A stretch of DNA of 64,000 nt from Lingula anatina (Eukaryota; Animalia; Brachiopoda). The notes beneath the pieces were generated by a model, which did not search any database, was not told where the DNA came from, and was given only the letters and a program-made list of their open reading frames with translations. Location: assembly GCA_051362555.1 (NCBI GenBank), contig CM120640.1, forward strand, positions 70,472,788-70,536,787. Reading direction: 5' to 3'. The translations under genes were made by a program, and so were the position numbers. This document shows, piece by piece, positions 1 to 57,301 of this stretch. Positions within the stretch are counted from its first letter, which is position 1, and every line of letters begins with the position of its first letter.

Positions 1-508
1 CAGCTCCTGGGAGACTGAGAATTCATGTAAGCGCCGACACCTGACAAACCACCCATAAGCAGCCCCATGCCCAAGGACACTGTGCTACCTATAAGAAAAT
101 TATTACATTTGAGACAAGTACAGTGTCAAAATCTCAAAATCGTACAGGCTTAGCATTTTTGGGCTATTCAATATTTTCATACATTTATAATTAAAATTAT
201 TAATGATGTCGATTAACGTTATTGTTATTTGTCTCATTGGTTTAATTCAATCCATATATTTGTCCTCAATCCATGTTCATGGCACGAAGAACGGTGGTAA
301 CAATATTATGAGTGACAAAGTGGATCATTGGACACATTTACTGGCGCTACAATATACCCTTAAAACTCTGTGGCAATGGTTACGTACGCACTACAAACTA
401 CACACTGGAGCTTTGAAAATGCACAACGCTATTACCAGCTTTAATGTAGCCTATAATTCCACCAATCGTCACGAAGGCAGCATAACCGTATCCCACCAAG
501 TCAGCCAT
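1..508 (-). CDS. TMEM14C: TMEM14-family small membrane protein (partial; continues beyond window start)
   Basis: Coding exons 508-436 (MADLVGYGYAAFVTIGGIIGYIKA, donor gtaat) and 88-1 (acceptor ttttcttatag; GSTVSLGMGLLMGGLSGVGAYMNSQSPRS) join in phase. They give the typical TMEM14 GGxxGYxKxGS motif. The paralog suffix is a guess. Confidence 0.88.
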
Positions 509-760
509 CGTGTTGTTGGCTTCCTGTAAAGTTCGTCTTGGCTTCAATGAAAACTTGTACCAAAGGCTGGAACAAACAGTAAATTGGTGATAAAAATAAG
601 TTATTTTATTCAATTATACAAATATTTTTTCCTCACATATATAGAATTTTTATAATTCTGTATTATCAAATGGTCATTTATGCGATATATTATCTAAACT
701 CACCACCTTTGCAAAATATGGATCCTGACCTAATTTTATAGACATGCTCATCACTGATAA
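509..760. promoter_or_regulatory. Very short head-to-head region between the TMEM14 and PPP1R8 start codons (bidirectional promoter / 5' UTRs)
   Basis: Divergent ATGs at 508 (-) and 761 (+), 252 bp apart. A minus-strand acceptor at 524-525 and donor GTGAGT at 698-703 suggest a TMEM14 5'-UTR intron. Confidence 0.6.
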
Positions 761-3700
761 ATGGCGACTGTAAATGCTAATAATTTTGAGGTGCCCACTT
801 GGTAAGCAAATGTTTTCAACCGAGAGGAATAGAGCAATTGATTTAATAGTGCACTATGTTACACTCAGTCATTCCCATTCCGGATTGGAATTATATGCGT
901 TTTTATTAATACAACTCCTAATTTTCAATCTTATTATAATATTAAAAATGACCAAAAAATCAACAGCACAATGCCACAAACAGTGAAACTGTACATTCTT
1001 TCTTTCTCCGATCAGAGCAAATGTTATTAAATATGAAAAAATGTTTAATGTTTTACAGGGCTGGGAAACCCCCTCCTGGACTTCATTTAGATGTCCTCAA
1101 AGAGGGCAAAATGATTCAGGTAAGTGTAGTCAACCATGTCTAAGTTTGCATTCAGTGGATGTGGCTGGTTGCAGTAAGGTATGCCTACCCTCTACCAGGG
1201 TGGCAGATATTATAGGGAAAATGACCAAAAGCCAGAGATATGAAAATGACTGTCTATTTATCTTAAGACATATACCCCTGCAAACATACTTCACTGTTAC
1301 ACAGGGTAACAAATAGTATCCAGCTTTTACTAGTTTATCATGAGAACTGATTTACCATTTATAGGTTGCTCAAACACACCATGCTCATTAGTACCACCAG
1401 CGTGTACGCTGGCGGTACTCATGGTTTTAGTCTCGACCCGTCTCGTACGGCTCCGTAAGCTCCGCCGGCTCCATTGGCTCCGCAGGGTGTCGTGGGATAC
1501 AAGTCACCGTTACCGCTTCTCCTCCTAGACCGCAAGGACCTGTGTCCCCCTCTCTTGGATTTAGGTCACATATAATCTCAACTTGAACCCCCTTGTATTT
1601 TTGTCTCAGTCGGTGCTTTGGCCTGGGCGTGACGCTCGTTGAAACGCACCCTTGTCAAAATTTTGGAAAATTCAATGCTAAATATTTCCCAAACCGAAGG
1701 AATTATCGGAAAAATTACTACAAAAGTCTGACTGAAAGTCATATGTGGAGATTCCAAATATGCCCTGAGATTTGACTTTTGACCTTTATTTCAAGGTCAA
1801 ACGGGCCAAAGTTTTCTAAAAATGGGACTTTTCTGCAAAAAAAATATTTGTTTGTACCAATTTTCAGAAACTACACAGACCTAAGCTCTCATATTATGGT
1901 GAGGGGTTACAATCAGGGACTCCTTTCATCTTTGAGAGTTTGGGGTCAATAGGTGCATTTTCATGGGAGAAGAGGCCATTAGATATGAAACTGAAAACTT
2001 TCTCAAATTCTGGAACCGTAAATGCCAGAGACCTTTTGAATTTTGCAATTTGTAGGACTTGTCAAGCACAATACTGGAGGTGGTGTCCACGTTTTTGTTT
2101 TCGATACGGTTTAGGCGTTGCGCTGTATAAAAAAGTACAACGCAATATTCAGTGGTGAAAATAAAATGTGAATTACTCCAAAATTAGCAGAGATATGCTC
2201 ATAGTTCCTATTGAACTTGAACAGGAAGTCGTATACTGGCAATCTAACTGTGACCTTGAAATTGACCTTTGACCTACTTTTTATTCTGAACTGCACTTTG
2301 CAAATTTTCTGATCTTCATATCTCCAAAACTGGCAAAGATACGACCAGTTACTATTGAACTTGATTAGGAAGTCATATACTTGCAATCTAACTGTGACCC
2401 TGAAATTGACCTTTGACCTAATTTTCACCATTAACTGAACTTTGCAAATTTTCTATCCTTTATATCTCGAAAACTGGCAGAGATACACCCGAAGTTACTG
2501 TTGAACTTGAATAGGAAGTCATATAGTGGCAATCTAACTATGACCTTGAAATTGAGCTTTGACCTACTTTTTATGATGAACTGCACCTTGCATGTTTTCT
2601 GGAATTTATATCTCCAAAATTTGCAAAGAAACTCCCATGGTTACTATTTAACTTGAATAGGAAGTCATATACTGTGACCTTGAAATTGACCTTTGACCTA
2701 CTTTTTCACCAAGAACTGAACTTTGCAAATTTTCTATCCTTTATATCTTGAAAACTGGCAGAGATACACCCAAAGTTACTGTTGAACTTGAATAGGAAGT
2801 CATATACTGGCAATCTAACTATGACCTTGAAATTGAGCTTTGACCTACTTTTTATGATGACCTGCACCTTGCATGTTTTCTGGCATTTATATCTTCAAAA
2901 TTGGCAAAGAAATTCCCATGGTTACTATTGAACTTGAATAGGAAGTCATATACTGTGACCTTAAAATTGACCTTTGACCTACTTTTTCACCAAGAACTGA
3001 ACTTTGCATATTTTCTTGCCCCTCATATCTTCAAAACTAGCAGAGATATGCCCATAGTGTTGCCCAAGGTTTACTCTTTTATCAGCATACTACAGATGCA
3101 ACAATGATAACACATTTCAAGGAAAACCAATAGGTCTATTATGGAGCGCCATTCACGCAAAAAATGCAGACGTCAATTCAACAATCTATCGGCACTATTT
3201 AACAGCCAAAACCTACTTTAACTATCTAAACTTAATTCTACTAAATTAGTTGTGGTCATTTTTTCATCATCAAAATCTAACAATCAATAATAACGATTCA
3301 AAAGTCAGTTACTGCAACTCAACAATCAGTCACCGCAAATCAACAATCAGTTACTGCAACTCAACAATCAGTCACCGCAACTCAACAATCAGTCACCGCA
3401 ACTCAACAATGTATCAATGTATTTTTGCGTGAATGGCGTGAAAGCATGGTGCGCCATTCACGCAAAAAATACAGACGTCAAATCAACAATCTACCGGCAC
3501 TATTTAACCAAAACCTACTTTAACTATCTAAACTTAATTCTACTAAATAAGTTGTGGTCATTTTAATCATTCGTCAAAATCTAACAGTCAATAAACGATT
3601 CAAAAGTCAGTTACCGCAACTCAACAATGCATTTTTTGCGTGAATGGCGCGAATGCATGGTGCGCCATTCACGCAAAAAATGCAGACGTCAACTCAACAA

Positions 3701-6700: not shown

Positions 6701-9700
6701 GTCTAGAAAATCACAGGAGTGATCAATGTTAGGAAAATACAGGTCAATTCCAAAATCTGCATGATTGGACCATTTTTAGTTTTTGCATTTTTTCATATAT
6801 TTTGAGAACTCTTGTTGATTGCATTTAATAGAGCTTGTTAAGCACAAGACTGGAGGTGGTGTCCCTTTTTTTGGGGGGTTTTCCATACGAATGCGCTTAC
6901 TCCAGCTGGTGGTACAATATCCGGAGGCGGTATCGCCTCTCTGATCCTCTAGTTTTACATATTTGTGAACAGTTGGTGTATTGTTAAAAGCAATTGCAAC
7001 TTATTTTATCAAAGAATGCAATTAAACTGTCAAAAGTTAATTGTACTAATTTATGGCTATTCCATTTCAGAAATTAATGATTGACGAGAAAAAGTGTTAT
7101 TTCTTTGGCCGCAATAAACAGCTGTGTGATTTCTGCATTGACCATGCCTCCTGCTCTCGTGTTCATGCAGCTTTAGTGTGGCACAAACACCTAGGACGAC
7201 CCTTTATCATAGACCTGGGGAGCAGTAAGTATATTTTAACATCATGGTGAACGTCATTTGTAGTTATATTTTTATTAAAATTGTTGTTGTGAGTTTAGCA
7301 TCCTTTATCACCATGTACATAATGTACATCATTACACCACTACACCTGATGTAGCATGTAAGTCATACTGAAACAAGTGAATATCAACGACTATGATTCT
7401 TTTTTGCATTACTGTTTTTTGTCTGATAAAGAAAATTTATGTATGTTCAAAGATTATTTTGATTGTTAATTATATTGAAGAAAATTTAAACTGTTCAGTT
7501 TTTGCACTAACTGAAATGGTCTCTGGATCCAGTAGGACGAAGTCCCAAGTGTTGGGATGAATGCTTTAACAGGTGTGCTTTTACCTGTAAAAATTGAACA
7601 GTTTATATTTTCCTCAATATGAATAACAGTATTCCACAGATCAACTTCCATCAGGATTGATTGGTGTTTGTTTTCCAGCACATGGTACTTTCATAGGTCA
7701 CATCAGGCTTGACCTGAAGAAACCTCAGCAAGTCCCAATAGACAGTGAACTCCACTTTGGTGCCTCCTCGCGGGTCTATATTATCAGAGAGCGTCCTCAG
7801 ATGCCATCTACTTACTCAGATGATAAAGACAAAACAGGAGAAGAGATTGGAGAAGGAGGACTGCTGGGGTTGCCAGAGTCTGAGACTGAGCTAGAGGTGA
7901 TGAGGCAAACATTTAGTATGAAGAATAATGTTAACATTTTAAGAAGAAGGACATCCCCTGCAAAAATTTGTCTCATCTAATGTTCACTTTTCTAGAACAT
8001 ATGGTGTATATTTTTTACAGTTCTAATGTTGTTCTGTAATAAATGTAACAGTTCAAGAGCTGATTTTGGGAAGTCCTTCAGAATGTCCTAGAACAGATTA
8101 GGAACATTTTTCATTAAAAGAGAAAAATATTATGTTCTAGGACAGATTGAGAAGCGTAAGTGAGTGTTAAGTGAGACAAATTTTTGCATGGGATTTCAGC
8201 ATTTTTAGTCAAAGCAACTTTAAAATGGTACACTTACAAAATTTAATAATCTCTCAGTTATATTGTATTGTATCTGATATACTGAGTAACGTTATTGAAA
8301 AAGTACTTTTACTGTTTATTCTTTTATTTTGTAAACAGAATCTAACAGAATTCAACACAGCACATAATAGAAGGATAGCTGCCATAGGAGATATAGCGGA
8401 TGTCCCGATGGTGAACAGGAAGAGGCGGCGGAAATCTGTGGGGTTTAGAGAAGAGGACGAAGTCATTAATCCAGGTGAGTTAAACACATCTTAACATGTT
8501 TAAATTAAATGCTAAAACTAAATAATGATAAATTAAATGTTTCCTGCCAGCTAGGCTTGTCAGTTACATATAGGGACAGAAACCCGATTTATTTTGTTTA
8601 AAGGTATCATATCTGATATTTTCCCACCAAATACATCTTCCTCTCAGGGAAGAAACTTTTTTTTATCTAACACGCAAATCATAGCTCTACCCTTCACTGC
8701 ATTTGGATTTGATGTTTTATACAATTTCTTATTATTATTATTTCATTGTTAAAGACTGATTCTGTCACTTTTAGTTGTTTTTTTTTTCACTTTCGAGGTC
8801 TGCATTGGGACAGATAGTAGCTTTGCAAGAAATGTAAATGCAGAAAATACAAATCTGAGACATATTCATACACATATAGTATACTTTTATAGAAAAAGCT
8901 GAGAATATACTCAATTGCTGCATTTTTATGAAGTTGAAGTGATTAAATTCTGGGCATTTATTTCCCTATCAAAATGGTTAAAATGAAAAAAATCAGTTTG
9001 TTATAGTTTGAACCTTTGAGATTTTTTAGAAGTTTTTTTTTTTACCCTGGGGCTAAAATAAAGTATTTTAGAGTGAGCTCATTACTGTGGGAAAACATCA
9101 GAAATACTTTTCATTAAATTTATTATATTCATGATCATATGGTACCACTATTAGTCCCATTTTGTGTTCACCAAAATTTAACAGTAACTTACAGAATTCT
9201 TGTAAATGTATAATGGTTTTATGCATTTATGATAGATCTATGAAAATGGTATCCATACAATATTTTCAAATTCCTTGCAGAGGACATTGATCCCACAGTG
9301 GGTAGATTTAGGAACATGATCAGCACTATGGTAATCCCATCAAAGGTGAGAACAGAAGGCTGCCTTGATTCACATCAGCACTGATGCAGCACTGCCATAA
9401 TTGATGTTGATGGGAGAGTTGCATCAGAACTTGGTTATTTTGCTGGATATGCAGTTGTTAGGAACTGTTGCAATAATATATACCTCAGTATATACCTCAA
9501 CCACAACATACTACATTCACAATATACCTCACTCACAATTAAACAAGAACAACATGAAATGTAACTGAGCAGTAGTCAAGCTTATTAATGGTTAGGCAAA
9601 ATTGTTATTAATTGAGAAACAAATTTGTCACCTTAAGAACTGCATTACCAAAATAGTTTTAATGCTGTCCAATATTTTAAGATATTTTGATTATAACTTA

Positions 9701-10357
9701 ATATAAAGTCAGTAAGAAATTTTACATTCTGCTTTTCCATTTTATTAATTTACTTATTTATGAACAATTATTATTTATTTATTTATGAACATTTATGAAT
9801 GTGCCCTTTGAGATTTTTGTATATCTTGAAACAAGAGGAACTTGATAACATTTTCATCTTGCCAAGCACCTGTTATAATACATATGTGCATCATTGCACT
9901 GTCATTAGTTTACATCATGAAGGTGAACAGCACATCAAGTCAGGTGTTTTACTGCATACAGGTTTCTGGGGTTTTTAGCTGAGATATAACTTTAACATTG
10001 GTGCATATATATATTTCATTCCAGAAACCAAAGCTAGATGCAGCAGGCAGTGGGAGTTCCATGTTTCCTCAAGTTCGCCAAGGTCAAGGTCATTTTGGAT
10101 CACATTTATACTCAGATCTTCCGTCAGCCACAGACGAGACTGGACTGGTGAGCAGTACATATAGCATTGCCACCAAGCTTGGTCTTCCTGTGCCAAACCT
10201 GGCACCTGACTTAGAGGAAGTGTCCAGCTCCATGCTGCAGATAGCACCTGCTCCTGCTGTGGTCAGTATGGACATTGAACAGAAAGAACCCAAGAAGAAA
10301 AAATATGCCAAGGAAGCTTGGCCTGGGAAAAGACCTACTCCTGCCTTACTGGTGTAA
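761..10357 (+). CDS. PPP1R8: Nuclear inhibitor of protein phosphatase 1 (NIPP1), 7 coding exons
   Basis: Exons 761-801, 1059-1119, 7071-7224, 7679-7896, 8339-8474, 9281-9345, 10025-10357, all GT-AG and phase-compatible. Translation has PTWAGKPPPGLHLDV, an FHA domain (FGRN...DHASCSRVHAAL...STHGTFIG), LTEFNTAHNRRI, PP1-docking KSVGF, EDIDPTVGRFRNM and C-terminal KKKKYAKEAWPGKRPTPALLV, matching recalled NIPP1. Confidence 0.97.
2170..3060. repeat. ~145-bp tandem satellite-like array (about 6 units) inside the HINE
   Basis: Motif gaacttgaataggaagtcatatac...gaccttgaaattgacctttgaccta recurs, with ggaagtc at about 2224, 2367, 2514, 2660, 2795 and 2941. The last four units form a 281-bp dimer. Confidence 0.9.
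4213..6020. mobile_element. TIR element with short subterminal repeats (atactcccccgc / gcgggggagtat), innermost nested insertion
   Basis: Clusters of tactcccccgca at 4225-4400 are inverted at 5867-6012. Direct repeat attctag at 4206-4212 and 6021-6027. No intact transposase ORF. Confidence 0.65.
5052..5116. repeat. Perfect 30-bp inverted repeat with 5-nt loop
   Basis: caagttacgcttgcggcctcgctgtttaaa-taatc-tttaaacagcgaggccgcaagcgtaacttg. Confidence 0.95.
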
Positions 10358-26646: not shown

Positions 26647-29600
26647 ATGCCGTTTTTAGGAAAAGACTGGAGATCTCCAGGAGAACAGTGGGTACGAACA
26701 GACAAAGGATGGGAAAGAATGAGAATGTGGAGGCTGAAATTGCTTGAAAATCTAAACGAAAATGTCGTTGCGAGGTAGGGGCCCTTTGTTTTTCAGTACA
26801 CACATCTTTTTCTCTTGTAACAGAGTTTGGTCATATGATTTGCTGCTTCGTATTTTTCTTAAAATCCTGTAACATATGGCAGGAGCAGTGGCGCCTAACT
26901 TTTAATTGGAGGGAGAGCCTGGAAACGGGAACTGAAAGTCGATTTTTTCACAAGGTAAATCTCTGATTGTGAACCTGTGGTAGGTTTATTTCTTGTATCT
27001 CTGTGACTGTGACAGTGTTGAAGCTAATTCACCAGTACTGCACCGGGCACTCCTGCCAACGTGTTTTTACGTTATTTGAAGAAAGATCTAAAAACTATGG
27101 GATTACTTTTACTGTTGGTATCTCAGTGTATTTTGGTACAGAGAAAATGGAATGTTGCCATTTAGATAGATAAATAAATAAATTAAACATATTGTATTGA
27201 TTGGTTGGGGTAGACCTAGGTGCGATAGCTTAGTGACAGAGCACTCACATGGTAAGTAAGCCAGTGCTCAGGTACAAACCCGGTCGAGTTAGGTGTTTTC
27301 CCCAAAAAGATTTCAATATAACATGATATTTTGTATCTCTGTACATTTAGACATGACACTAAATTCAGCAACATCTAGCATCTCACATGACTTATTTTCT
27401 GAGCACGTGTTAAGTGTAAAAGTGTTGATATATGCAACTTGTATTTAAACTGATGTCAGGAACACAAGTTTTTCAGTGAATGTGTGGATACGGTTTTGTG
27501 ATGTGAGATCAATAATGTCTCATGTGGTCTAGATTTAGAAAAGTGACATTTCACAAGTCTGCATTGTACAAACATGGTAAAGGCCAAGTTTTGCTCTTGC
27601 AGGCTTGCTGTCTTGCAATGTCAGCATTGTTGCAAAAGGGGAAACCACAGGAAGATAAAAAAAAATATTGTATTATCTAAATATGTCAAATGTTATGGAT
27701 AACAGTCAAAATGCCAGGACACCTGCAGCTAAAATCTTACTTATATTTTTGCTGATTCTTACATTATTTGTAGAAAAGTGGATGAATGGTATATGATATA
27801 TGTTTTTCATGTACTGAGTTATCAGATAGATCTCCACACTAGAAGGTTCCAAACTGGGTCAGTCCACAAAAAAGTGAAGTAACATTAACATGTAAATCAC
27901 ATAAAAATAACTCCATGTGTCTTATTTCTATTAATGACTCAAATGCACTTGAGTGAAACAGTAACACATGGAATTGCAACTTCTGTTTTCAAGTCCCTGA
28001 ATTCTGTTTTCAGAATCATCAAGCTTGCATTGGAAGACATGGAATCCAGGCACAGTGCATTGGTGACACACAGTCAGCCCCACATTTATGTGGCTAAAAC
28101 TGTGTCCAGAGAGGTGAGTCTTAGGCTTGATGTGGCTAAAACTGTGTCCAGAGAGGTGAGTCTTAGACTTGATGTGGCTAAAACTGTGTCCAGAGAGGTG
28201 AGTCTTAGACTTGATGTGGCTAAAACTGTGTCCAGAGAGGTGAGTCTTAGGCTTGATGTGGCTAAAACTGTGTCCAGAGAGGTGAGTCTTAGGCTTGATG
28301 TGGCTAAAACTGTGTCCAGAGAGGTGAGTCTTAGGCTTGATGTGGCTAAAACTGTGTCCAGAGAGGTGAGTCTTAGGCTTGATGTGGCTAAAACTGTGTC
28401 CAGAGAGGTGAGTCTTAGACTTGATGTGGCTAGAAATGTAACAAAATTATGTGACACCTTTTGTCGGGAGTCGTGTATCTGACAGTTGGTACATGGATTG
28501 TTATTTTTAGAAGAAATTATGGTTTATTTGCTCATAAAATATGACTAGATGTCTGGATGGAGCTTTCTACTAATAAATTCAAGAGATTGACTAGATCCCC
28601 AATGTGTTTATAATGAAATTTAATTTAATTTATTTATTTTATTGTTCAAAATTAAGCTTATAGTGAGAAGAAAATATGATTTCCAAAGTAAGCAAAAACT
28701 GTGTCTTTGTTGGCATAAAACAACTTTACTCTTTTGAATCATCACATTTAAAGACAGTTCATGTCAGTTTTGTCTAGTTTTCACTTTGTCAGTGCCAGGT
28801 GCAGAAGCTATGAATCTTTTATTTTACTCATCTTAGGATGCATTCACACTAGTTTTAATTTTAAAAAATTGACTTACATTCAAGTATCAGATCCCCGCCC
28901 CACCCTGCTCTGTGACCTTGCTAACACCTGAGTGTGCTGATCAATGAACTCACGGATTGGGGGTGGTGGTGGTGGGGGGGGGGGGGGGGGGGAAGGTTAG
29001 GATCTCCCTGTAGAAATTAAGACTAAATCCCTGTTGGTTTAAAACCAGTCTCAACTAGGGTTTGCTGCACTGCAGTAACACAAAGGCACAGTGCCAATAA
29101 GTTAGGGAATATAAACCTTAGCAATTCATTACCTGGTACAAAGGAACTCGAGTATCAGGAGTTAAGTCAACTAAGTTATATTATAAACATGCCTCTCTAC
29201 CTGACTGTACTCAGTGTATGGGCCAGTTTCCAGGATAATTTAGACACAGGAATCAGGGATTGTGGTGGTTACTACTAATGTTACAAACAAGAAAAACATA
29301 ATATTAGTTAGAAAATACACAGTTTTTTTTATTTTAGTCAAGTCCTCATTAATTTAGTTTTCAGTGTTGTGTCCACATCTTATATGACATAATATGTCCC
29401 TGACTGCGGCACCTGTAGCCAGGGTATATAGATAACATATTGAATAACCAACCTGTCACTTCCTGGATGGCATTCTTAGAGAATAAACTAGTTCAGTACT
29501 TCCAAACTGCGTAGATGATTTGGCAGGACAAGAATGCCTTTGTCTTGTGTCTTGGCGTGTTGCCACATTCCCAGGTATACAGTTGTGATGTATCTAAATG

Positions 29601-35599: not shown

Positions 35600-35788
35600 A
35601 CCCTGTGCCACACTGAGCTTACAACCACCCCCTGAGGTATCCTGAGTAACCTACCACACCCTGGGTATCCAAACCTTACCTCTGTGCCACAATGGGCTAA
35701 CAACCACCCCCCGAGGTATCCTGAGTAACCTACCACACCCTGGTAAAAAATCTTACCCCTGTGCCACACAGGGTTTGCAACCACACCA
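35600..35788. repeat. ~79-bp tandem repeat (about 2.4 copies) between the convergent 3' ends of the F-box gene and TRIT1
   Basis: ctgtgccaca at ~35603, ~35682 and ~35759; gaggtatcctgagtaacctaccacaccctgg occurs twice. Confidence 0.85.
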
Positions 35789-43200: not shown

Positions 43201-46200
43201 AGTAACAATATAAGTTATTCAACCCACATACTTATCTCCAAGGACAAGAATCTAAAGCTTAGATCACTTCCCAGTGAGGCTGCCAGCCAAGAGGGTCAAC
43301 GACTTTTCAATAGGTGATTATTCAACACAGCAAGCACAGAGAAGGGGGTGCAGCGGTTTAGTGATAGAGGATAATATGTGTGGGTGATTGGGGTGGGATT
43401 AAATAATAATTAAAATAATTAAAATATCAATAAACTTTTAAAGTTTGCTTTGAATCACAGCAATTTAAATATTGCAGCAATAAATAGTTTCATTTTCTTG
43501 ACCCAGGAAGTATACCTTCTTTCAAAAGTGTTTCTCCCATTTGACTTTGTCGTTCTTGTTCAGGCAGGATCAAATAGTTATGAAATTCTTTGAATCCAAT
43601 ACTTTGAAAGATGCCATGTGTGTAGTCTGCTTCCCTGAAAAACAAAAAGTAAACTAGCAAACAAACCACTCTTTTATGTTTATAGTTTATTTTTTCATGG
43701 TTTATTTCTTTCAATAAAAAAGAATTCTTTGCAGTTCTCTAACATAAAAAAATTGCACCCAACCTGGCCTGTGGGTAGGCAAGTTATACAACATGTAATT
43801 AGGAGCTTATAGCAATGGATTACTTGCATAACAACTTTAGATGTTAGAACCTGTGGGCTTAAGGAACTGAACTTGGGAGTGAACAAACTAGGTACACAGA
43901 CTATAGCCACCTTCAAATTGTCTACAAAGAAAACAAGCATGATGCATGCTAAAGCAGACTAATCCCTGCCTGACCCGGGTGATTGATAAAATTCTTATCA
44001 GAGACCCTATACAGTACCCAGAGAGATCAAAAGAGAATACTTCACCCTAACCAAAATAAAGCCCAATATTCTCACTTGTGGCTAATAATAATATTGACTT
44101 ACAATCACAAGGTAATGTAGGGTTGCCACAGGCTCAACAACTCAGTTTGTACAAATATTGGAAAATGAAGTTGCACTTGGTGGAATTTCAGAACATGAGC
44201 AAGGATAGAGAGCCAGACGGACTACGAGATGTTAATCAAAATATCAATGACTGGACATCATATACACTGTATGATGCAAACGCTCAGCAAGGAGGCAGCG
44301 TTGCAACTTGTGCTAACTGTCAAATTACAGCACCTGCTGGGAAGGTTTAAAAAACATATTTGAAATATTTGAAGCATTCAAAACTCCTCAGGGAAAACCT
44401 CCCAATTTAATTTTCACTTTCTTTCCTTTTCCTTTTTTTTTTTAATTTGTGTTTCAACATGATCGCATTTTTACTTTCACTACTTTAACATACACACAAT
44501 ACACCCCCATAATATCACAAAAAAATAATAAAAAATTGCCCCACTTCCTTATTGCAACTTTCAATTTATCCTATAGTATAATCCTTCTTGTTGCTTCCTT
44601 CATATTTACTTCTGTGTCCAAAATCCAGATAAGTTTCCCTTTCACTACCAGAATTGCATAAATATGTTTCTACTTAAAGTTTATTTTCACTCAGTGCTCC
44701 AAATATTCATAACTTTTGAATCAGAAAAATCATATTGTGTTGACTTCTTATAATATGTCTAGAAAATCAATACTGTAACCTAAAGTATTCAAGTTGCAAA
44801 AATTAAGAATTAAGCAGAAAAGACTCAGAATATCAGTCTATGTGTGATCTTACTTGTGTTCCTCCAATCTCTGCTGGTTGTAGCGGCTGTGAAAGTCCAA
44901 CAGTTCCGCCACCAACCCCCTCTCTAACATGGAGTCCACACGCTTGTCAAGACGCTCATCAAGCACTGTAAAGACATAATATTACACTTTATCTAATACT
45001 GCAGAACTCTTACCGAGGAGAACCTTATCATTATTATTATTATTATTATTCTGCCATAGAGTCATATCTGATGTTGTTTTAACCACACAGTAATATGAGA
45101 GCTACATATGGTCCGTCTTCTGACACTGTACCCAGAATATAACCCACCTGTCTGCTGACACTGCACCTAGAATATAACCCACCTGTCTGCTGACACTGCA
45201 CTTAAAATATAACCCACCTGTCTGCTGACACTGCACCTAGAATATAACCCACCTGTCTGCTGACACTGCACCTAGAATATAACCCACCTGTCTGCTGACA
45301 CTGCGCCCAGAATATAACCCACCTGTCTGCTGACACTGTACCCAGAATATAACCCACCTGTCTGCTGACACTGTACCCAGAATATAACCCAAATGTCTGC
45401 TGACACTGTACCCAGAATATAACCCACCTGTCTGCTGACATTGAACCCAGAAGATACAGTTGTGCTGATATCTCAGAGGGCCACTAACATCCTCGTCCTC
45501 TTGATGCTGTTCTGCCAAGATCTCACTCATGGTCACACCATACTGGAAATGCACCTCCAGACCTCTACAGAATAAGGGGGGATATATCTAAACTAAAATG
45601 TGGTGACATTGGGCTTATTTACTTCGATTGTTCTAACTAGTCAACAGTACCCCCTTCCTGAAAATAAATTTAACTTATCTATGCTTTATATCAGAAACTA
45701 CATTCCTGCCATAAATGTTCTCATTCTATTTTTGTTTCATGTTACATTACTTAGTATATTTTCATATCTTAAATAGGACAACCCTTCAGTGGGTAGGAGG
45801 CTATGTATTTCTTGATATTTTGACTTCTTCTTTGCTAAGTGCAGTTACAATTTGCCTCCTAAATCCAGTTTTAGTTATGAGATTATTCAACAGGTGGCAG
45901 CACAAATAGGGCATTCTTATTATAATAACCCTGATTACACTATCATCAACTCAACAGACACCATCCATTAATCATCACTTTAAAACAATTGAAACTGAGC
46001 CTGATTATCAGTTACTGGGCCATCTCCAATAACATCAACAAAACAAAGTTTACAATGTTGATCAACTTGTCCAAAGAGATAATGTTTGGCAACACTAAGT
46101 CTGCTTTCAGGAAGACAAGGATATCTTTTGATAATTTAATGTTGACAAGGTGACTATTTCAATAAAACCCATCAAAGAAAAGTTCAAATTAAATTTCAAC

Positions 46201-56679: not shown

Positions 56680-57301
56680 GGGTGCGCTTCGCTATGCCGA
56701 AGGTTCGCTATGCCGAAGGTTCGCTGTGCCGAGGGTTCGCTATGCCGAAGGTTCGTTATGCCGAGGGTTCGCTGAGCCGAAGGTTCGCTATACCGAGGGT
56801 TCGCTATGCCGATTGTTTTTAAAAAGATGTTAATTTTACACACACCCAATAACTACAACAAGTTCGCCAAAAATAATTAGAGAATGTTTTCTTGTCAGTA
56901 ATTTCCTAAATGTGGGTGACGCCCATAGTGCCAAAAATAATTAATATATTAACTTACAGAACTGATTATTTAAAGCGATTTAAGATGTTTATGTCCATAA
57001 GGATAAACCTTCAATGCGCAGTTTTAACAAATCCAAATGGTACGGATGGAAGAAGAGAACTTTTAAAACTCGTTTATTTTCAAAAAAGGCCACTGCTCGC
57101 CACGTTACATAACAAGCACAATGGGTGATGGGTAGCCGACTTTTTCGGCGCAGCGAACCCTCGGCACAGCGAACCATCGGCATAGCGAACCTTTGATTTT
57201 GGGGCTCCGGAAAAACTTAGCCGATTTTAGACCAATTTTCCGGTTTTGTCGGCACAGTGAACCCTCGGCACAGCGAACCTTCGGCACAGCGCACTGTCCC
57301 C
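56680..57301. mobile_element. ~620-bp MITE with 17-bp subterminal tandem repeats and 8-bp TSD
   Basis: Left (ggttcgctatgccgaa/g)n, right inverted (tcggcacagcgaacc)n, GGG...CCC termini. Exact TSD ctcttatg at 56672-56679 and 57302-57309. Confidence 0.9.

What the first reader, a model, noticed from the sequence alone, without database searches (positions are those of the whole stretch)
45115..45454. Second, independent splice-donor minisatellite in TRIT1, with frame-cycling 35-bp units
Seen: 25 nt of exon end plus 10 nt of intron are repeated 9 times. Eight copies keep CAG|GTGGGT, while the copy next to the real donor has lost it (CATTTGGGT). Since 35 is not a multiple of 3, only every third donor restores frame. 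The fourth (45322) would add 35 aa (GGLYSG...IFWVQCQQT) without a stop; the seventh lies past a TAG at 45237. The true exon differs from the commonest copy at synonymous sites (GTT CAA vs GTA CAG). Inference: most alternative donors would give frameshifted NMD substrates, so the array could tune TRIT1 dosage, and loss of the nearest competitor may reflect selection.
Basis: partly seen in the sequence, partly recalled or inferred. Interest (0 to 1): 0.7.

Follow-up and report, generated by a model that had tools for sequence, protein, structure and literature searches.

The report
Splice-donor repeat in brachiopod TRIT1 intron
In a lamp-shell gene for a tRNA-modifying enzyme, the end of one exon and its splice signal are copied about ten times into the next intron, but the RNA reads examined join only at the first, true signal, so this is likely a tolerated oddity of a kind known from lancelet and human genes, with a hint that the copy next to the true signal has likely been weakened separately in two alleles.

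Summary
The array is real: 35-bp units, 9.8 copies, spanning a TRIT1 donor in Lingula. All 4 DNA runs laid hold it. Graph modelling gives 4.8-5.8 copies in two other samples, so it is a VNTR.

In 4 RNA runs, 24 of 24 junction reads join at the first donor (95% bound on other donors 12-22%); 2 reads lie inside the array, unjoined. These animals lack the window's haplotype, and NMD was not blocked. The in-frame +35 aa product would hit a segment of fixed length in 138 of 144 homologs.

It is a new member of a known kind: amphioxus 'mirages' and the human F7 and CBS junction VNTRs. The scan found this kind before on other DNA (119 notes, at least 30 genomes).

One twist: the nearest pseudo-donor is dead here (CAT|TT) and, by modelling, weakened in a second allele lineage (CAA|GT), echoing a published title on CBS's second repeat. 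Chance estimate 0.02-0.12; array-edge drift explains it too. Dosage tuning is unsupported.

The parts
45428..45564 (-). TRIT1 coding exon upstream of the array (137 nt, ...[10 protein letters not shown])
   Evidence: tblastn of RefSeq P0001/P0002; RNA loose ends at both limits
45115..45456 (-). 35-bp minisatellite, 9.8 copies; fills 313 of the 462 nt of intron 45427-44966
   Evidence: pieces present in 4 of 4 DNA runs
45418..45452 (-). Unit 1: last 25 exon nt plus the real donor CAG|GTGGGT (first intron base 45427)
   Evidence: 24 of 24 junction reads
45383..45417 (-). Unit 2: nearest copy, donor destroyed by GG>TT at 45393-45392 (CAT|TTGGGT)
   Evidence: sequence; site not covered by any listed contig
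45138..45382 (-). Units 3-9: seven intact pseudo-donors at 45357, 45322 (in frame, +35 aa), 45287, 45252, 45217 (in frame, past a stop), 45182, 45147
   Evidence: no junction read from any of them
45237..45239 (-). TAG in the exon's reading frame (unit 7)
45112..45137 (-). Terminal partial copy without donor; differs from the exon copy at 4 of 25 sites; likely source of the 5' half of all internal units
   Evidence: sequence shown; ancestry inferred; its end is shared by X3 and X4
44854..44965 (-). Next TRIT1 exon ([11 protein letters not shown]...), IPPT domain
   Evidence: Pfam PF01715 E 7.9e-05
28088..28439 (+). Comparison only: 42-bp in-frame donor array in FBXO25, all 7 pseudo-donors intact

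Best explanation
This is a 35-bp minisatellite, likely variable in copy number, that repeats the end of a TRIT1 exon and its splice donor into the next intron; the spliced reads seen use only the first donor, so the extra donors are likely silent bystanders. Steps: (1) inferred: an old short duplication placed a copy of the exon end just behind the donor, and that copy drifted (4 of 25 sites); (2) inferred from the pattern of diagnostic sites: slippage or unequal exchange between the two copies, in the shared TGTCAG stretch, produced hybrid 35-bp units that then changed in number (9.8 here; modelled 5.8 and 4.8 in two other samples); (3) shown at low depth: the first donor is used; (4) inferred from F7 experiments: the first donor wins because of its position, not its sequence; (5) predicted: any leak would give frameshifted NMD substrates or a 35-aa insert in the enzyme core, i.e. 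waste rather than regulation.
For: 24 of 24 junction reads at 45428 in 4 RNA runs from 3 studies; zero depth behind the donor in 3 of 4 runs. Both RefSeq isoforms join QT|VL. W-to-R spacing across the junction is 15 in 138 of 144 covered homologs and gap-free against 3 PDB enzymes shown. Array present in 4 of 4 DNA runs; X1 contig depths are 3.15, 1.97, 3.23 and 3.11 times the flank against 3.06, 2.14, 3.0 and 3.0 expected. Allele models reproduce 7 of 7 listed X3 pieces and 5 of 5 X4 pieces plus the flank end. No RNA structure to mask donors (z +2.72), which fits positional choice. F7 pseudo-sites are functional but unused (PMC1557585); mirages do not disturb splicing (PMC3087553, PMC3902484). 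The FBXO25 RefSeq protein also uses the first donor.
Against: Only 24 reads, perhaps 12 molecules, from 6-25% of each run; leaks up to 12-22% are not excluded. Poly(A) or unspecified libraries without NMD block hide frameshifted products. The RNA animals do not carry the window's haplotype (34 of 34 reads differ at 45542). Two X16 reads inside the array could be pre-mRNA or an extended exon. The nearest pseudo-donor is damaged in both readable allele lineages, which strict neutrality does not predict. In human CBS and 6-16 the nearest pseudo-sites are used (PMC1557585 introduction).
Confidence: 0.68

Rival explanations
1. Pruned competitor: when intact, the pseudo-donor 35 nt behind the real one takes a share of splicing and gives frameshifted mRNA, so weak purifying selection has favoured alleles in which that one copy is damaged. 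Farther copies are ignored.
For: Window allele: CAT|TT in unit 2. X3/X4 allele: C>T (+ strand) at the -1 position of a donor; all 6 fully matching models put this CAA|GT unit directly behind the real donor. The two units are of different types, so the events are likely separate. Each carries only the donor change; other private changes lie in units 5 and 8. Pairing energy falls from -10.9 to -3.5 and -4.4 kcal/mol. The in-frame FBXO25 array keeps its nearest donor (n=1). Published title: a substitution in the second CBS repeat prevents multiple alternate splicing (seen only in a reference list).
Against: Only one independent test (X3 and X4 share 9 listed SNPs). Chance estimate 0.02-0.12, depending on assumptions. 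Boundary units escape homogenisation in mirages (PMC3087553), so private mutations are expected there. CAA|GTGGGT scores like the gene's genuine donor CAA|GTAAGA (-4.5), so it is not shown to be dead. The CAT|TT site is not read-verified. F7 keeps all pseudo-sites intact with a 37-bp unit. X2's first unit could not be read.
Confidence: 0.25
2. Dosage rheostat: array length and donor content set the share of TRIT1 pre-mRNA sent to NMD, and this is maintained because it tunes tRNA i6A modification.
For: 6 of 7 pseudo-donors would give premature stops. Alleles differ in length. A title links the CBS VNTR to reduced activity (reference list only).
Against: 0 of 24 junction reads at pseudo-donors, including in-frame ones that NMD would spare. 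Damage to the nearest donor points to removal of leak, not use of it. Unit types differ freely between alleles. Two of 15 mapped donors in the window carry such arrays, in unrelated genes.
Confidence: 0.05
3. Assembly artefact: the array, or its dead second unit, was produced by the assembler.
For: No contig spans the array, and none listed covers 45392-45393.
Against: Array pieces in 4 of 4 DNA runs and in 2 RNA reads; X1 depths match the window's multiplicities; all three single-copy variants drop out alike, as expected of contig simplification.
Confidence: 0.02

Closest known systems
Human CBS intron 13 31-bp VNTR, c.1444_1467+7(16_21) (PMC2630376 passages; PMC1557585 introduction and reference titles)
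   Same: 24 exon + 7 intron nt per unit against 25 + 10 here; unit length not a multiple of 3; variable copy number; housekeeping enzyme; by the title of Yang et al. 2000, a substitution in the second repeat limits alternative splicing.
   Different: 16-21 copies, and two pseudo-sites are reported as used; here about 5-10 copies and none seen used in 24 reads. Unrelated sequence and gene. Here two different second-unit changes in two allele lineages.
Human F7 intron 7 37-bp VNTR (PMC1557585: abstract, introduction, first results section, discussion)
   Same: First unit spans the donor; 5-9 copies; frame-shifting unit; same intronic hexamer GTGGGT; only the most upstream donor used.
   Different: Only 4 exonic nt per unit; all pseudo-sites identical and intact; mechanism tested by minigenes in mammalian cells, untested in Lingula.
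Amphioxus 'mirage' minisatellites: Adh3, globins BflGb6/BflGb9, troponin C, PGBD5 (PMC3087553 and PMC3902484, passages)
   Same: Marine invertebrate; tandem copies of an exon-intron boundary; haplotypes differ in copy number; boundary units less homogenised; normal splicing reported; several per genome.
   Different: Different phylum (brachiopod); donor side only; somatic instability, reported for Adh3, was not testable here.

Membership tests
Junction-spanning minisatellite (mirage / F7-CBS type) | Head-to-tail tandem array of 10-160 bp units | tested here: met
   35 bp x 9.8, 94% matches
Junction-spanning minisatellite (mirage / F7-CBS type) | First unit spans a genuine exon-intron boundary | tested here: met
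   24 reads splice at 45428; RefSeq proteins
Junction-spanning minisatellite (mirage / F7-CBS type) | Splice signal reiterated in many but not all copies | tested here: met
   7 of 8 internal units intact
Junction-spanning minisatellite (mirage / F7-CBS type) | Copy number varies between alleles | tested here: met
   9.8 in window/X1 against modelled 5.8 (X3) and 4.8 (X4); indirect, from contig graphs; loop counts set by depth
Junction-spanning minisatellite (mirage / F7-CBS type) | Mature mRNA uses mainly the authentic site | tested here: met
   24 of 24; low depth, no NMD block, other haplotypes
Junction-spanning minisatellite (mirage / F7-CBS type) | Pseudo-sites functional when the first is removed (shown for F7) | not testable with these tools
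   needs a minigene
Regulated unproductive splicing (AS-NMD switch) | Alternative junction seen in RNA | tested here: inconclusive
   0 of 24; bound 12-22%; NMD would hide most products
Regulated unproductive splicing (AS-NMD switch) | Conserved poison element | tested here: not met
   unit number, type and order differ between alleles of one species; other species not examined
TRIT1 / MiaA tRNA dimethylallyltransferase (host gene) | IPPT domain and orthology | tested here: met
   PF01715 on two exons; RefSeq name, 93% over the exon; PDB 3eph E 3.6e-55 for P0002

The most novel reading that the evidence does not exclude
A 'second-repeat rule': in frame-shifting donor minisatellites only the nearest copy competes with the real donor, and selection disables that one copy again and again. 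Lingula TRIT1 would show it twice independently within one species (CAT|TT and CAA|GT), converging on human CBS, while the in-frame FBXO25 array 17 kb away keeps its nearest donor. With 2 of 15 mapped donors carrying arrays, Lingula would offer a genome-wide natural test of how far 5' splice-site competition reaches.
Probability: 0.2. Interest if true: 0.5.

Novelty: new member of a known kind. Interest (0 to 1): 0.25.

Why it matters
As it stands, it is one more junction-spanning VNTR, in a phylum where my searches found none described. It matters modestly as a natural test of 5' splice-site choice outside mammals: identical donors at 35-nt steps, alleles of different length, and a damaged nearest copy. 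If the nearest-copy pattern held across many arrays and depended on frame, it would show weak selection on splicing noise and give the distance over which donors compete. Such arrays can also mislead gene prediction.

Tried and rejected
No whole genome is held, so the genome-wide frequency of such arrays was not measured. The run search listed no RNA holder; this is no evidence either way, and raw-read runs of the same species label were laid instead. No contig covers the dead site; X2 has no contig over the exon; X1 and X3 have none over the downstream flank: holes prove nothing. X1 may be the sample the window came from, so it is not independent support. RNA structure as a mask of pseudo-donors: rejected, the region folds worse than all 100 shuffles. 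Common origin of the TRIT1 and FBXO25 arrays: rejected (score tied third of 105 pairs, although 119 of 5000 shuffles reach it). Synonymous differences as a sign of selection on the exon: rejected (chimera model). One row (G-type internal GT) was sliced off by one base and is not used; one donor was set 2 nt off, without effect on the count. PMC10078293 (passages) holds nothing on donor-spanning arrays. Lievers 2001 and Turri 1995 are not held; Yang 2000 was not requested; all three are cited by title only. Paper searches. Earlier-note look-ups by place and for a nearest-copy effect returned nothing. No structure was predicted.

Full report
Observation. TRF finds a 35-bp array at 45115-45456, 9.8 copies, 94% matches. 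On the minus strand each unit is 25 exon nt plus 10 intron nt. Unit 1 holds the real donor, unit 2 reads CAT|TTGGGT, units 3-9 keep CAG|GTGGGT, and a tenth partial unit has no donor. Of the 7 intact pseudo-donors, 45322 gives an open +35 aa insert; the other 6 give a premature stop in the next exon or at 45239-45237. GTA CAG is in 3 of 8 internal units; 4 of 8 are of a type that puts a stop in the exon frame.

Host gene. The exon's only hit among 3 candidates is Lingula anatina tRNA dimethylallyltransferase, 93% identical. Both RefSeq isoforms in its cluster join [10 protein letters not shown] to VLDERLDK, i.e. the first donor. Two exons hit Pfam IPPT. I aligned 149 unnamed homologs to P0002; 5 do not cover the junction. 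Of the 144 that do, 138 have the same W-to-R spacing of 15, 3 are one longer, 1 is shorter and 2 have inserts of 12 and 16 residues. A 35-aa insert would therefore fall in a segment of nearly fixed length in the catalytic core; that it would be inactive is inference.

RNA. The run search listed 21 runs, 9 of them raw RNA; I laid 4 of these 9, from 3 studies, on 45388-45687. Of 64 reads laid, 24 (7, 5, 4, 8) end at 45428 and run on into the next exon. No loose end is listed at a pseudo-donor (listing needs 3 reads), and depth over 45388-45427 is zero in 3 of 4 runs. In X16, 2 reads lie wholly within repeat units and do not run on into other sequence; they show that array reads are caught by this short reference and that this animal has the array, and they may be pre-mRNA or an extended exon. 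With 24 reads the 95% bound on other donors is 12%; with 12 molecules, if mates overlap, 22%. Limits: no NMD block; 6-25% of each run read; sensitivity for pseudo-donor joins on a two-unit reference not measured; all 34 reads at 45542 differ from the window, so its 9.8-copy allele was not tested. No difference is listed at 45444 or 45441, so the exon reads GTT CAA in these samples.

DNA. I laid 4 of the 10 holders. All four contain array pieces, and their flank contigs, where listed, break inside the array's edge units. X1 matches the window at 390 of 390 flank bases; its four array contigs have 3.15, 1.97, 3.23 and 3.11 times the flank depth, against 3.06, 2.14, 3.0 and 3.0 from the window's own 31-mers. 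All three single-copy variant paths (units 2, 5, 8) are missing from its list, so the dead site is not read-verified, and an allele lacking unit 2 would fit these depths as well. X3 and X4 share another haplotype (9 listed flank SNPs and a 2-nt gap) and a C>T on the + strand at a donor's -1 position, giving CAA|GTGGGT.

Allele models. I enumerated 6646 single-allele models from 7 unit types, each required to contain the CAA|GT unit. Three reproduce all 7 listed X3 pieces and the flank end at 45398, and predict one more 34-nt piece (one X3 record was not shown); three reproduce all 5 X4 pieces. All six put the CAA|GT unit directly behind the real donor. The depth-best models have 5.8 and 4.8 copies. 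Caveats: the letters of two variant units are inferred; flank depth is 1.6 to 2 times or more the single-path depth, so a second allele may be hidden; X3 and X4 count as one lineage; X2's first unit is unreadable.

Origin (inference). The exon copy and the terminal copy differ at unit positions 9, 12, 19 and 24. Units 2-4 match the terminal copy at 9 and 12 and the exon copy at 19 and 24, which is what one exchange in the shared TGTCAG stretch would give; units 5-9 derive from that type. The modelled X3/X4 unit that matches the terminal copy through position 19 fits a second exchange further on. The GTT CAA / GTA CAG difference thus reflects drift of the intronic copy and says nothing about selection.

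Nearest donor. It is damaged in 2 of 2 readable lineages by different changes on different unit types. Crude pairing energy against the complement of the consensus donor falls from -10.9 to -3.5 and -4.4 kcal/mol, but the gene's genuine donor CAA|GTAAGA scores -4.5, so CAA|GTGGGT is weakened, not shown dead. The window allele generated the hypothesis, so only the second lineage tests it: 0.02-0.12 by chance for 1-2 private changes over 4 units. The 42-bp in-frame array in FBXO25 keeps all 7 pseudo-donors, and its RefSeq protein uses the first. Against selection: mirage boundaries are excluded from homogenisation (PMC3087553, passages), and F7 tolerates intact neighbours. The pre-mRNA is less structured than shuffles (z +2.72), so masking is unlikely.

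Known systems. PMC1557585 (abstract, introduction, first results section, discussion, reference passages) describes the F7 37-bp VNTR, whose pseudo-sites are functional but unused, and lists 6-16 and CBS (nearest pseudo-sites used), LMNB2 and PDGF (only the authentic one used). PMC2630376 (passages) gives the CBS unit as 24 exon + 7 intron nt. The title of Yang et al. 2000, seen only in that reference list, says a substitution in the second CBS repeat prevents multiple alternate splicing. PMC3087553 and PMC3902484 (passages) describe amphioxus mirages that vary between haplotypes and do not disturb splicing; I was led to them by earlier scan notes (119 notes in at least 30 genomes, unchecked). 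A search for Lingula with TRIT1 gave 0 papers; Lingula anatina with tandem repeat and intron gave 22, of which the 20 listed titles are on other topics. I opened no supplements; the library lacks most subscription journals.

Verdict. A real, likely polymorphic junction-spanning minisatellite; a new member of a known kind; most likely tolerated because the first donor wins (0.68). Pruning of the nearest competitor is a live but thin add-on (0.25). Adaptive dosage tuning is unlikely (0.05). Interest 0.25.

Noticed in passing
window 28088-28439 (+): 42-bp x 8.4 array repeating the FBXO25 exon end and donor GAG|GTGAGT; each unit reads [14 protein letters not shown] in frame without a stop; ends in a partial copy without donor, as in TRIT1; RefSeq P0003 uses the first donor. 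No reads laid.
   Followed up: partly
TRIT1 and FBXO25 introns: 2 of 15 mapped donors in these two genes carry a donor array, a high density if typical of the genome; not testable without the assembly.
   Followed up: partly
window above 47091 (-): Residues 1-122 of the long RefSeq isoform (P-loop region) have no match in the window, so these exons lie beyond 64000 or are missing. The short isoform starts at an exon at 48975-48874 and lacks the P-loop.
   Followed up: partly
window 45608-45687: 8 reads in RNA run X12 lie in the upstream intron, in the gene's sense, and run over the end of the stretch: possibly an intronic transcript end or a retained segment.
   Followed up: no
window 45428-45564: The exon is very polymorphic: 8 variant rows in 137 nt. 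The window encodes VHFQYG where RefSeq has VHSQHG; the Tyr codon is in none of 34 RNA reads but matches DNA run X1.
   Followed up: partly
window 45138-45277, units 6-9: Units 6, 7 and 9 contain TTATATTCTAG|GTGCAG and unit 8 TTATATTTTAAG|TGCAG; the former is acceptor-like and could define 20-nt or 55-nt microexons. No read shows this.
   Followed up: no
window 2176-3048, 35601-35768, 56688-57291: Other tandem arrays (periods 135-281, 79 and 16 bp), not checked against exon boundaries.
   Followed up: no
window 401-613 (-) and 7050-10354 (+): Reading frames that look like TMEM14 and PPP1R8/NIPP1 exons; names recalled, from no call.
   Followed up: no
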